NCBI RefSeq assembly: GCF_030013595.1
Contig: NZ_CP122768.1
Reading direction: 5' to 3' (one strand)
Length of the DNA stretch: 64,000 bases
From: Escherichia coli
Lineage (GTDB): Bacteria > Pseudomonadota > Gammaproteobacteria > Enterobacterales > Enterobacteriaceae
This document shows, in pieces, positions 39,001-42,000 of the stretch; position 1 is the first letter of the stretch, and each line of letters starts with the position of its first letter. Made by a program: the position numbers.

Positions 39001-42000
39001 CGGTACGGAAACCGAATTGTCATTAACCCTGCTTGGTCAACATGACGCCGTTGCAGGCGTGGCCTTCCCCTACTTTGGCGGCATTGAAAATCCGCATTTT
39101 CGTAGCGTAAAAAACAATCCTGTCCTGGTGCGTCAATTACCCGTTAAAAACCTGACATTAGCCGATGGCAGCACCTGTCCGGTGGTTAGCGTTTATGATT
39201 TGGTACTGGCGAATTACGGCCTCGATCGCGGGCTGGAAGATGAAAACAGCGCGAAAGATTACGCTGAAATCAAACCGTACACCCCAGCCTGGGGTGAGCA
39301 AATTACCGGTGTGCCGCGCCAGTATATTGAAACCATCGCTCGTGAATTTGCCGATACTGCCCATAAAACGCATGGGCGCTCGATGATTATCCTCGGCGCA
39401 GGTGTTAACCACTGGTACCACATGGACATGAACTACCGGGGAATGATCAATATGCTGATCTTCTGCGGTTGTGTCGGGCAAAGCGGTGGCGGATGGGCAC
39501 ACTATGTCGGTCAGGAAAAACTGCGCCCGCAAACTGGCTGGTTGCCGCTGGCCTTTGCGCTCGATTGGAACCGACCACCGCGCCAGATGAACAGCACCTC
39601 GTTTTTCTACAATCATTCCAGCCAATGGCGCTATGAAAAAGTCTCTGCTCAGGAGTTACTTTCACCGCTCGCCGATGCCAGTAAGTACAGCGGTCATCTG
39701 ATTGATTTCAACGTTCGTGCCGAACGTATGGGCTGGCTACCTTCTGCGCCGCAGCTGGGGCGTAACCCGCTCGGGATTAAAGCTGAAGCCGACAAGGCCG
39801 GATTATCCCCCACAGAATTTACCGCCCAGGCGCTGAAATCGGGCGGTTTACGCATGGCCTGCGAACAACCAGATAGCGGCAGCAATCATCCGCGTAATTT
39901 GTTTGTCTGGCGTTCTAACCTGCTTGGCTCCTCCGGCAAAGGCCACGAGTATATGCAGAAGTATCTGCTGGGAACCGAAAGTGGGATTCAGGGTCAGGAA
40001 CTCGGTGCCAGCGACGGGATCAAACCAGAAGAAGTCGAGTGGCAAACTGCGGCGATTGAAGGCAAGCTCGACCTGCTGGTGACGCTCGACTTCCGTATGT
40101 CCAGTACCTGCCTGTTCTCCGATATCGTTCTGCCCACCGCCACCTGGTACGAAAAAGACGATATGAACACCTCGGATATGCATCCGTTTATTCATCCGCT
40201 TTCTGCGGCGGTCGATCCGGCGTGGGAATCACGCAGCGACTGGGAAATCTACAAAGGTATCGCCAAAGCCTTTTCGCAAGTGTGCGTGGGCCATCTTGGC
40301 AAAGAAACCGACGTGGTATTACAACCACTGCTGCATGACTCTCCGGCAGAACTCTCACAGCCGTGTGAAGTGCTCGACTGGCGCAAAGGCGAATGCGATC
40401 TGATTCTAGGTAAAACTGCGCCCAATATTGTGGCGGTGGAACGCGACTACCCTGCTACCTATGAACGCTTTACCTCGCTCGGGCCATTGATGGACAAACT
40501 TGGCAACGGCGGTAAAGGGATTTCGTGGAATACCCAGGATGAAATCGATTTCCTCGGCAAACTCAACTACACCAAGCGTGAAGGCCCGGCACAGGGGCGT
40601 CCGCTGATTGACACCGCCATTGACGCATCAGAAGTGATTCTGGCGCTGGCACCGGAAACCAACGGTCATGTTGCAGTCAAAGCGTGGCAGGCGCTGGGCG
40701 AGATCACCGGACGCGAACATACCCATCTGGCGCTGCACAAAGAGGACGAGAAGATTCGCTTTCGCGATATTCAGGCGCAGCCACGTAAAATTATCTCCAG
40801 CCCCACATGGTCCGGTCTGGAAAGCGATCACGTTTCCTATAACGCGGGATACACCAACGTTCATGAGTTAATTCCGTGGCGCACGCTGTCGGGACGCCAG
40901 TAGCTCTATCAGGATCATCCGTGGATGCGTGCTTTTGGTGAAAGCCTGGTGGCTTATCGCCCGCCTATCGACACCCGTAGCGTCAGTGAAATGCGCCAGA
41001 TACCGCCAAACGGCTTCCCGGAAAAAGCACTTAACTTCCTGACGCCGCATCAGAAATGGGGCATTCACTCAACCTACAGTGAAAACCTGCTAATGCTGAC
41101 GCTCTCTCGCGGTGGACCGATTGTCTGGATTAGCGAAACCGATGCCCATGAACTGACCATTGTCGATAACGACTGGGTGGAAGTGTTTAACGCCAACGGC
41201 GCGCTGACTGCCCGCGCGGTGGTCAGCCAACGTGTACCGCCGGGTATGACCATGATGTATCACGCTCAGGAACGCATTATGAATATCCCGGGCTCGGAAG
41301 TGACCGGAATGCGCGGCGGCATTCATAACTCGGTCACCCGCGTTTGTCCGAAACCAACGCATATGATTGGCGGTTACGCGCAGCTGGCCTGGGGCTTTAA
41401 TTACTACGGCACCGTCGGCTCGAACCGTGACGAATTCATCATGATCCGCAAGATGAAGAACGTTAACTGGCTGGATGATGAAGGTCGCGATCAGGTACAG
41501 GAGGCGAAAAAAATGAAAATACGTTCGCAAGTCGGCATGGTGCTTAACCTCGATAAATGTATCGGCTGCCATACCTGTTCGGTGACCTGTAAAAACGTCT
41601 GGACCGGACGCGAAGGCATGGAGTACGCATGGTTTAACAACGTCGAAACCAAACCGGGCATTGGTTATCCGAAAAACTGGGAAGATCAAGAAGAGTGGCA
41701 AGGCGGCTGGGTCCGCGATGTCAACGGTAAGATCCGCCCGCGTCTGGGCAGCAAGATGGGCGTAATAACCAAAATCTTCGCTAACCCGGTGGTGCCGCAG
41801 ATTGATGATTACTACGAACCTTTCACCTTCGACTACGAACATTTGCATAGCGCACCGGAAGGCAAACATATCCCTACTGCTCGTCCGCGTTCACTGATTG
41901 ACGGCAAACGGATGGACAAAGTGATCTGGGGGCCAAACTGGGAAGAATTGTTGGGCGGCGAATTCGAAAAACGCGCCCGTGACCGCAACTTCGAGGCCAT

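What the first reader, a model, noticed from the sequence alone, without database searches (positions are those of the whole stretch)
40901..40903. In-frame amber (TAG) codon inside narZ (nitrate reductase Z alpha subunit)
NarG-like translation is continuous across TAG at 40901-40903 (..WRTLSGRQ*LYQDHPWMRAFGESLVAYRPPIDTRSV..). The homologous NarG segment, as I recall it, reads ..GRQQLYQDH.., so this looks like a single CAG to TAG change. It would truncate NarZ by about 200 residues unless suppressed.
Basis: partly seen in the sequence, partly recalled or inferred. Interest (0 to 1): 0.55.

Follow-up and report, generated by a model that had tools for sequence, protein, structure and literature searches.

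The report
narZ amber-stop pseudogene, fixed in lineage
The stop codon is real: a single C-to-T change has broken the spare nitrate reductase gene narZ in this E. coli lineage, which is ordinary decay of a dispensable gene, and annotators already flag the same stop in about 200 other genomes.

Summary
TAG at 40901-40903 is codon 1043 of narZ (37775..41515, +). K-12 narZ and the two nearest complete genomes have CAG there, and NarG has Gln. The product stops after 1042 of 1246 residues and loses the whole molybdopterin-dinucleotide-binding domain (residues 1086-1200).

The T is not a base-calling error. The same 1042-residue product is on record in dozens of independent assemblies. Four of those contigs match the window over 11-15 kb, apart from two positions.

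Those two positions are private to the window genome, and both lie in narZ:
- 40407 C>T gives Pro878Leu, at a Dcm site.
- An extra A at 41507-41513 (A7 instead of A6) deletes the narZ stop and puts narZ in frame with narY.

Either could be further decay or a long-read assembly error; I cannot tell which.

The same TAG sits on an unrelated, K-12-like narZ haplotype in 204 of 5426 complete E. coli genomes. All seven I inspected are annotated as a pseudogene with an "internal stop". The two haplotypes differ at about 112 sites, so the mutation most likely arose twice.

narU, narY, narW and narV are intact. The published review I read describes NarZ as contributing little to nitrate reduction. Verdict: an ordinary nonsense pseudogene of low interest.

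The parts
36292..37680 (+). narU, nitrate/nitrite transporter; first gene of the narUZYWV cluster, intact
   Evidence: It differs by one base from narU of HCP5S3_I2 and has no internal stop. It is annotated narU in relatives.
37775..41515 (+). narZ pseudogene (nitrate reductase Z alpha subunit). It carries a nonsense codon at 1043, Pro878Leu, and loss of its own stop codon.
   Evidence: The N-terminal 1042 residues score 1956 bits against TIGR01580 narG, above the cutoff of 1084. The orthologue is annotated narZ in K-12, MEI003 and HCP5S3_I2. The lesions were listed by alignment.
40406..40408 (+). Codon 878, CTA (Leu) instead of CCA (Pro). The C>T at 40407 hits the inner C of a Dcm site (CCAGG>CTAGG). 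Private to the window genome.
   Evidence: All other genomes compared have C, including four contigs of the same lineage.
40901..40903 (+). In-frame amber codon TAG, codon 1043, derived from CAG (Gln)
   Evidence: Searches show the codon. CAG is found in K-12, MEI003, HCP5S3_I2 and ETEC4068. TAG is shared by lineage contigs L015-L018.
40925..43057 (+). 710-codon ORF created by the two lesions together: NarZ residues 1051-1246 fused in frame to NarY 1-514. It starts at the first ATG, 22 nt after the TAG. There is no evidence that it is translated.
   Evidence: It appears in the ORF list and the translation. In lineage relatives with A6 the same ATG opens only a 196-residue ORF, which carries PF01568. 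The 710-residue product is not on record anywhere.
41030..41374 (+). Region coding for the Molydop_binding domain (PF01568, NarZ residues 1086-1200), which lies wholly downstream of the TAG
   Evidence: Pfam scan of residues 733-1246 gave E = 6.6e-20. Precomputed Pfam on the split ORFs agrees.
41507..41513 (+). A7 homopolymer where all close relatives have A6. The extra A removes the narZ TGA stop (the ATGA overlap with narY) and places narZ and narY in one frame. Private to the window genome.
   Evidence: The same A7 occurs independently in three pig ETEC genomes.
41513..43057 (+). narY (beta subunit), intact, with its own GGAGG Shine-Dalgarno sequence at 41500-41504
   Evidence: It is 100% identical to narY of HCP5S3_I2. 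It scores 981 bits against TIGR01660 narH. The Shine-Dalgarno sequence was read directly from the sequence.
43057..43752 (+). narW (assembly chaperone), intact
   Evidence: annotation in relatives.
43749..44429 (+). narV (gamma subunit), intact
   Evidence: annotation in relatives.

Best explanation
narZ is a dead gene in this E. coli lineage. A spontaneous C-to-T transition turned Gln codon 1043 (CAG) into the amber stop TAG. Translation should end there, giving a 1042-residue NarZ that lacks the C-terminal molybdopterin-dinucleotide-binding domain. By inference, no active nitrate reductase Z forms, and the cell would rely on its other nitrate reductases (NarGHI and Nap), which lie outside the window and were not checked. 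The stop arose after the split from the HCP5S3_I2-like sister lineage and is shared by all sampled members of the window's lineage. In the window genome the dead gene carries two further changes, Pro878Leu and an A6>A7 slip that removes the original stop. These look like continued neutral decay. What is shown: the mutation, its derived state, its fixation in the lineage, and the domain that is lost. What is inferred: the loss of enzyme activity, and neutrality as the reason the allele persists.
For: - The TAG is in frame at codon 1043.
- CAG is found in K-12, MEI003, HCP5S3_I2 and ETEC4068, and Gln in NarG structures.
- The nearest complete genome, HCP5S3_I2, is 99.9% identical over 64 kb and has an intact annotated narZ.
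- The truncated 1042-residue product (with Pro878) is on record from NCBI (STE01847.1) and Logan assemblies, on 39 contigs in 61 index blocks.
- Contigs from SRR19716082, SRR10970592, ERR4899789 and ERR4421134 match the window over 11-15 kb, TAG included.
- The inferred intact ancestor protein is not on record at all.
- PF01568 Molydop_binding maps to residues 1086-1200, downstream of the stop.
- NarZ is described as contributing little to nitrate reduction and as non-essential for mouse gut colonisation (review PMC7759655).
- PGAP labels the identical TAG 'internal stop' pseudogene in all seven genomes of the other clade that I inspected.
- The window-private lesions 40407 and 41507 both fall inside narZ.
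Against: - No expression or enzyme data exist for this strain.
- narY, narW and narV downstream show no damage. That fits a recent inactivation, but it is also what continued use of the operon would look like.
- Low-level natural readthrough of UAG, which could insert Gln, cannot be excluded from sequence alone.
- The two private lesions could be assembly errors rather than decay. One is a homopolymer-length change and the other sits at a Dcm-methylated C, and both are typical long-read error classes.
Confidence: 0.9

Rival explanations
1. The T at 40901 is a sequencing or consensus error in this assembly, and narZ is really intact.
For: The window genome does carry two private differences of the kinds long-read assemblies get wrong: A6>A7 at 41507 and C>T at a Dcm site at 40407. 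Base modifications are known to cause nanopore read errors (PMC11610603).
Against: Four independently sequenced contigs of the same lineage carry the same T on otherwise identical DNA. The truncated product is listed on 39 contigs in 61 index blocks from several accession series. The first 7 kb of the window matches two other assemblies with no differences at all.
Confidence: 0.02
2. The gene still works because the amber codon is read through. Either a supE-like suppressor tRNA would insert Gln and restore the wild-type protein, or the UAG-C context is leaky.
For: The lineage carries two fixed CAG>TAG ambers in 64 kb, in yddB codon 86 and narZ codon 1043, and the window genome has a third in an RHS gene. 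Gln insertion would restore all three. From memory, not checked here: UAG followed by C is the weakest UAG termination context in E. coli, and amber suppressors have been reported in natural coliform isolates.
Against: - There is no tRNA gene in the window.
- CAG>TAG is simply one of the commonest nonsense transitions: 33 of the 133 possible nonsense transitions in narZ, and TAG overall accounts for 73 of 133. Three ambers are therefore not unusual.
- In the window genome the A7 slip removes the natural stop, so readthrough would give a 1760-residue NarZ-NarY fusion rather than NarZ.
- Extra damage (Pro878Leu and A7) points to relaxed selection.
Confidence: 0.03
3. The gene has been split rather than killed. 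Ribosomes restart at ATG 40925 (Met1051), and the 1042-residue N-terminal piece plus the C-terminal domain piece assemble into an active enzyme.
For: - The restart ATG lies 22 nt after the stop, with a weak AGGA 10 nt upstream.
- Only eight residues (1043-1050) would be missing.
- The break lies 43 residues before the Molydop_binding domain, so it falls between Pfam domains.
- Gene callers predict the 196-residue ORF in every lineage contig shown.
Against: I have no evidence that a two-piece NarG or NarZ works; I did not search the literature for one. In the window genome the C-terminal piece is fused to NarY by the A7 slip and the N-terminal piece carries Pro878Leu, which looks like decay. 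The Shine-Dalgarno match is weak.
Confidence: 0.03
4. On origin only: the TAG was imported by very-short-patch recombination from the K-12-like clade that carries the same allele, rather than arising a second time by mutation.
For: The two lineages share an identical 55-63 base stretch around the TAG. Only 133 nonsense transitions are possible in narZ, so an exact coincidence is about a 1-in-100 event if only one other allele exists.
Against: Any imported tract would have to fit between the flanking haplotype differences at 40834 and 40990. That is at most 155 bp and would carry no marker other than the T itself. The two narZ haplotypes differ at about 112 of 3730 sites. No nearby repeat could template the change.
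Confidence: 0.1

Closest known systems
narZ 'internal stop' pseudogene annotated by NCBI PGAP in E. coli M217, Sanji, 51008369SK1, H8, ES4, ECSD228 and CM IVRI KOL-1 (the seven inspected of 204 complete genomes carrying this TAG)
   Same: The same codon (1043) has the same CAG>TAG change, gives the same truncation, and sits upstream of an intact narY-narW-narV.
   Different: Those genomes carry it on a K-12-like narZ haplotype, 1-2 nt from K-12 and about 112 nt from the window. They keep the normal A6 run and TGA stop, and they lack Pro878Leu.
E. coli K-12 narZ (b1468), nitrate reductase Z alpha subunit
   Same: It is the orthologue, in the same narU-narZ-narY-narW-narV order and with the same length of 1246 codons. 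It differs from the window at 9 amino-acid positions besides the stop.
   Different: K-12 has CAG at codon 1043 and a normal TGA stop that overlaps the narY start codon.
NarG, alpha subunit of nitrate reductase A (PDB 1Q16, 1R27)
   Same: It is the paralogue, and its C-terminal 261 residues align over their full length with E = 3.6e-151. Gln sits at the aligned position within ...GRQQLYQDH....
   Different: It is a different locus (narGHJI, not in the window) and the main respiratory enzyme. Nothing here says anything about its state in this strain.
Truncated NarZ protein STE01847.1 / UniRef100_A0A376H915 ('respiratory nitrate reductase 2 alpha chain', 1042 aa)
   Same: It is the same lineage and the same stop, and it is identical to the window product apart from residue 878.
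   Different: It has Pro878, and its genome has A6, so a separate 196-residue downstream ORF ends at the normal stop.
Amber mutations at Dcm sites (5-methylcytosine deamination hotspots, CCAGG>CTAGG), as in the classical lacI work; recalled from memory
   Same: Two changes in this window have exactly this signature: narZ Pro878Leu at 40407 and the yddB Gln86 amber at 1141. That is 2 of 7 C:G>T:A transitions at about 1% of G:C pairs, P about 0.002.
   Different: The narZ TAG itself is not at a Dcm site. Its context is GCCAGCAGCTC, and the mutated C lies in GCAGC.

Membership tests
Respiratory nitrate reductase alpha subunit (NarG/NarZ; NCBIfam TIGR01580 equivalog) | Sequence match above the curated cutoff | tested here: met
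   Residues 1-1042 score 1956.4 bits against a cutoff of 1084.15 and cover profile positions 1-1043 of 1235. The downstream 196-residue piece covers positions 1052-1235.
Respiratory nitrate reductase alpha subunit (NarG/NarZ; NCBIfam TIGR01580 equivalog) | One uninterrupted reading frame of about 1246 codons that includes the C-terminal Molydop_binding domain | tested here: not met
   A stop at codon 1043 comes before PF01568 at residues 1086-1200. This is a pseudogene of the family, not a functional member.
narZ locus specifically (as opposed to narG) | Gene order narU-narZ-narY-narW-narV, and orthology to K-12 b1468 | tested here: met
   The order is the same as in K-12, MEI003 and HCP5S3_I2. 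The gene has 115 nucleotide differences from K-12 narZ over 3741 nt.
Nonsense pseudogene | The stop is derived: orthologues and outgroups have a sense codon | tested here: met
   CAG is found in K-12, MEI003, HCP5S3_I2 and ETEC4068, and only 204 of the 5426 complete genomes carry TAG.
Nonsense pseudogene | The stop is real and inherited, not an artefact of a single assembly | tested here: met
   It is present in independent lineage contigs L015-L018 and in 39 contigs / 61 index blocks.
Nonsense pseudogene | Loss of the protein's activity | not testable with these tools
   This is inferred from loss of the cofactor-binding domain. It needs an enzyme assay in a narG napA background.
Programmed recoding of UAG (pyrrolysine-type or conserved readthrough) | The UAG is conserved at this position across orthologues | tested here: not met
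   TAG is a minority, derived state (204 of 5426 complete genomes plus the window's lineage). The other genomes inspected have CAG.
Programmed recoding of UAG (pyrrolysine-type or conserved readthrough) | A dedicated suppressor tRNA or recoding machinery | tested here: inconclusive
   No tRNA gene lies in the 64-kb window. The rest of the genome is not available.

The most novel reading that the evidence does not exclude
Codon 1043 of narZ is a site of parallel evolution. The identical CAG>TAG change became fixed independently in two distant E. coli lineages, with the downstream genes left intact. This would happen either because losing, or splitting off, the C-terminal domain of NarZ is favoured in some niche, or because this C (in GCAGC) is a lineage-independent mutational hotspot. 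A bolder version is that the two pieces, 1-1042 and 1051-1246, still form a working enzyme.
Probability: 0.05. Interest if true: 0.45.

Novelty: already known. Interest (0 to 1): 0.12.

Why it matters
It matters little beyond correct annotation. narZ should be marked as a pseudogene in this genome, and predictions of nitrate respiration for this lineage should count only NarGHI and Nap. Two minor points may interest population geneticists:
- The same nonsense change appears on two unrelated narZ haplotypes, one of them in 204 complete genomes. This fits weak selection on the stationary-phase nitrate reductase in E. coli.
- The A6 run at the narZ/narY overlap is a repeat site of +1 slippage, or of homopolymer miscalling, and the extra A fuses the two genes.

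Tried and rejected
- **Sequencing error at 40901.** Rejected, because independent assemblies of the lineage carry the T.
- **K-12 also carries TAG.** Rejected: K-12 has CAG.
- **TAG imported with a long recombination tract from the K-12-like clade.** Rejected, because flanking haplotype markers at 40834 and 40990 are of the window type. A tract of 155 bp or less cannot be excluded.
- **Template-switch or quasi-palindrome origin.** No direct or inverted copy of any 7-11-mer spanning the mutated base lies within 400 bp on either side.
- **Dcm deamination as the cause of the TAG.** The site is not CCWGG. Dcm does explain 40407 and the yddB amber.
- **Suppressor tRNA in the window.** None found.
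- **Poor assembly overall.** The window-derived and sister-derived changes have similar spectra, the first 7 kb is identical to two other assemblies, and of the other long homopolymers in the window only a G run at 49948, in the RHS gene, differs from the sister genome HCP5S3_I2.
- **Exact look-ups that found nothing**: the window's own 1042-residue product (with Leu878), the 1083-residue alternative start, the 710-residue fusion ORF, both intact ancestral versions, and the truncated RHS.
- **Literature searches.** Searches for narZ with pseudogene, premature stop, ST167, ST410 or ST617 returned nothing relevant.
- **A possible GCWGC 5-methylcytosine hotspot.** The narZ TAG and the RHS amber both hit G[C]AGC, nominal P about 0.004. 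The motif was chosen after seeing the data and rests on two events, so I do not rely on it.

Full report
**1. Observation**

Window bases 40901-40903 read TAG. The ORF list shows a + strand ORF ending at that TAG, and a second ORF in the same frame resuming at ATG 40925. Translating 37652-43060 in that frame gives a NarG-like protein that starts at MSKLLDRFRYF (ATG 37775). The TAG is codon 1043 of 1246, so 204 residues are cut off.

**2. What the gene is**

- The 1042 residues before the stop score 1956 bits against NCBIfam TIGR01580 (narG equivalog, cutoff 1084), covering profile positions 1-1043.
- The 196 residues after the restart ATG cover profile positions 1052-1235.
- The gene order is narU, narZ, narY, narW, narV, as in K-12 MG1655, MEI003 and HCP5S3_I2, where the gene is annotated narZ.
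- K-12 narZ has CAG at codon 1043.
- NarG in solved structures (1R27, 1Q16) reads ...WRTLSGRQQLYQDH..., with Gln at the aligned residue.

**3.

The translation does not stop at the end of narZ. It runs straight into NarY (...QEAKKMKIRSQ...). The junction reads GGAGGCGAAAAAAATGAAAAT, with seven A's at 41507-41513. K-12, MEI003, HCP5S3_I2 and the other TAG-bearing genomes inspected have six A's. With six A's, the narZ TGA stop overlaps the narY ATG as ATGA. The extra A removes the narZ stop and puts narZ and narY in one frame. Together with the TAG this creates a 710-codon ORF at 40925-43057: NarZ residues 1051-1246 fused to NarY.

**4. Closest relatives and polarity of the changes**

- The nearest complete genome is HCP5S3_I2 (NZ_CM149870.1). 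It is 99.9% identical over the whole 64 kb and has an intact, annotated narZ.
- With MEI003 as outgroup, 23 changes are derived in the window and 32 differing positions are derived in HCP5S3_I2, nine of which are a single 9-bp deletion.
- Three of the window-derived changes lie in narZ: 40407 C>T (Pro878Leu), 40901 C>T (Gln1043 amber) and the extra A at 41507.
- The two lineages show a similar mix of synonymous and non-synonymous changes, so the window does not look unusually error-prone.

**5. Is the TAG real?**

Exact-sequence look-ups gave a clear answer.

- The window's own truncated product (with Leu878) is not on record.
- The same 1042-residue product with Pro878 is on record: STE01847.1 and UniRef100_A0A376H915, plus Logan assemblies, on 39 contigs in 61 index blocks.
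- Four contigs, from SRR19716082, SRR10970592, ERR4899789 and ERR4421134, match the window over 11-15 kb.
- Two of these four contigs differ from the window at only two positions, 40407 (they have C) and 41507 (they have A6). The other two share those two differences and also carry three private differences each, outside narZ. All four carry T at 40901.
- The inferred intact ancestor protein is not on record.

The TAG is therefore genuine and fixed in the lineage. Pro878Leu and A7 are private to the window genome. Pro878Leu hits the inner C of a Dcm site (CCAGG>CTAGG) and A7 is a homopolymer-length change. Both are plausible real mutations in a dead gene. Both are also the classic long-read error classes; modification-induced nanopore errors are documented in PMC11610603. 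I cannot decide between these without reads. Other lineage members carry three private differences each over the same 15 kb, so two private changes is not an unusual number.

**6. The same TAG elsewhere**

- A 63-base query centred on the TAG matched 204 complete E. coli genomes at 100%.
- A 55-base query, designed so that every seed word must span the T, found exactly those 204 of 5426 genomes.
- All seven genomes I inspected are annotated narZ pseudogene, 'internal stop'. All seven have identical NarY, NarW and NarV proteins.
- Their narZ is 1-2 nt from K-12 but about 112 nt from the window.
- Around the TAG, the nearest sites that tell the two haplotypes apart are 40834 and 40990, and both are of the window type. 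Any imported tract would therefore be 155 bp or shorter and would carry only the T.
- No nearby repeat could template the change.
- narZ offers 451 possible nonsense substitutions, of which 133 are transitions.

Independent recurrence is the more likely reading, but very-short-patch import is not excluded. No complete RefSeq genome belongs to the window's own TAG lineage: the best 600-base match is 99.8% and has C.

**7. Consequence**

Pfam places Molydop_binding (PF01568) at NarZ residues 1086-1200, entirely downstream of the stop. Precomputed Pfam hits on the split ORFs in lineage contigs agree: the 1042-residue piece carries Nitr_red_alph_N, Molybdopterin and NarG_dom_V, and the 196-residue piece carries Molydop_binding. 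Inference: a product without this domain cannot hold the Mo-bisMGD cofactor, so nitrate reductase Z is inactive.

narY keeps its own GGAGG (41500-41504) and ATG. narY and narW are identical to those of the sister genome, and narV differs by one base that is derived in the sister genome. The downstream genes could still be expressed unless Rho-dependent polarity acts in the 612 untranslated bases; this was not tested.

A published review states that NarZ contributes little to nitrate reduction. [quoted passage not shown] This fits tolerated loss.

**8. Rivals**

- **Error.** Excluded for 40901 (section 5).
- **Suppression or readthrough.** There is no tRNA gene in the window. The lineage has a second fixed CAG>TAG amber in yddB, and the window genome has a third in an RHS gene. 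However, TAG accounts for 73 of the 133 possible nonsense transitions in narZ, so this is not a signal. In the window genome, readthrough would give a NarZ-NarY fusion.
- **Working split enzyme through restart at Met1051.** This is possible in principle. The restart ATG is 22 nt downstream with a weak AGGA, and the break falls between domains. There is no evidence for it, and the extra damage in the window argues against selection.

**9. Comparison and novelty**

This is a nonsense pseudogene of a well-known, dispensable paralogue. The identical allele is already flagged by PGAP in RefSeq genomes of another clade, and the truncated protein of this lineage is already deposited. I found no paper that discusses it. 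The only mildly new point is that the same codon has been hit on two unrelated haplotypes.

**10. Verdict**

The feature is ordinary. Interest is 0.12, and novelty is 'already known'.

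Noticed in passing
window 1141-1143 (yddB, 886..3258, + strand): There is a second in-frame amber codon: yddB codon 86 is TAG instead of CAG, made by C>T at the inner C of a Dcm site (CCAGG>CTAGG). It is fixed in the lineage, where relatives show split ORFs of 85 and 684 residues. The sister genome HCP5S3_I2 has an independent yddB stop (Trp322, TGG>TAG), so yddB has been broken twice among close relatives.
   Followed up: partly
window 51168-51170 (RHS gene, 54503..49856, - strand): There is a third CAG>TAG amber, at codon 1112 of a type VI-associated RHS toxin gene. It is private to the window genome: relatives L027, L028 and L032, plus HCP5S3_I2 and MEI003, all have CAG. 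The mutated C lies in GCAGC, the same pentamer as the narZ site.
   Followed up: partly
window 49948 (RHS 3' end): The window has one more G (GGG versus GG) than HCP5S3_I2. The lineage relative L028 also has the extra G and a 1559-residue RHS that overlaps its immunity gene, so the window form is probably the intact frame and the 1548-residue form in HCP5S3_I2 the shifted one.
   Followed up: partly
window 49874 and 54978: These are two further substitutions private to the window genome (T>A and G>A) compared with lineage relatives. With 40407, 41507 and 51170 they make five private changes in about 24 kb, whereas the first 7 kb has none compared with two other assemblies.
   Followed up: partly
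window 30174-30176 (fdnG, 30761..27714, - strand): There is an in-frame TGA at codon 196 of fdnG. It is the normal selenocysteine codon of formate dehydrogenase-N, it is also present in the reference, and it is not a lesion.
   Followed up: yes
window ~33272 (between the ompC-like porin gene and the LRR genes): HCP5S3_I2 carries an IS200/IS605 transposase insertion of about 0.7 kb here. The window lacks it.
   Followed up: partly
window 26140-26148 (between yddM and fdnI): The 9-bp stretch GCGCCATTT is present in the window and in MEI003 but deleted in HCP5S3_I2.
   Followed up: no
L003 (ETEC4068, NZ_CP122681.1), narZ/narY junction; also ETEC6333 and ETEC6334: Three pig ETEC genomes carry the same A7 run with CAG at codon 1043. 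This gives an uninterrupted narZ-narY fusion ORF, which PGAP calls 'missing C-terminus'. It is either recurrent slippage at this A6 run or recurrent homopolymer miscalling.
   Followed up: partly
L016 and L017, corresponding to window 33.3-35.9 kb (leucine-rich-repeat genes): Other members of the lineage carry private single-base indels that split one of the two leucine-rich-repeat genes upstream of narU. Gene decay is common in this neighbourhood.
   Followed up: no
E. coli genome collection: 25 matches to narZ lie on records labelled as plasmids. These are probably mislabelled chromosome fragments or large chromids.
   Followed up: no
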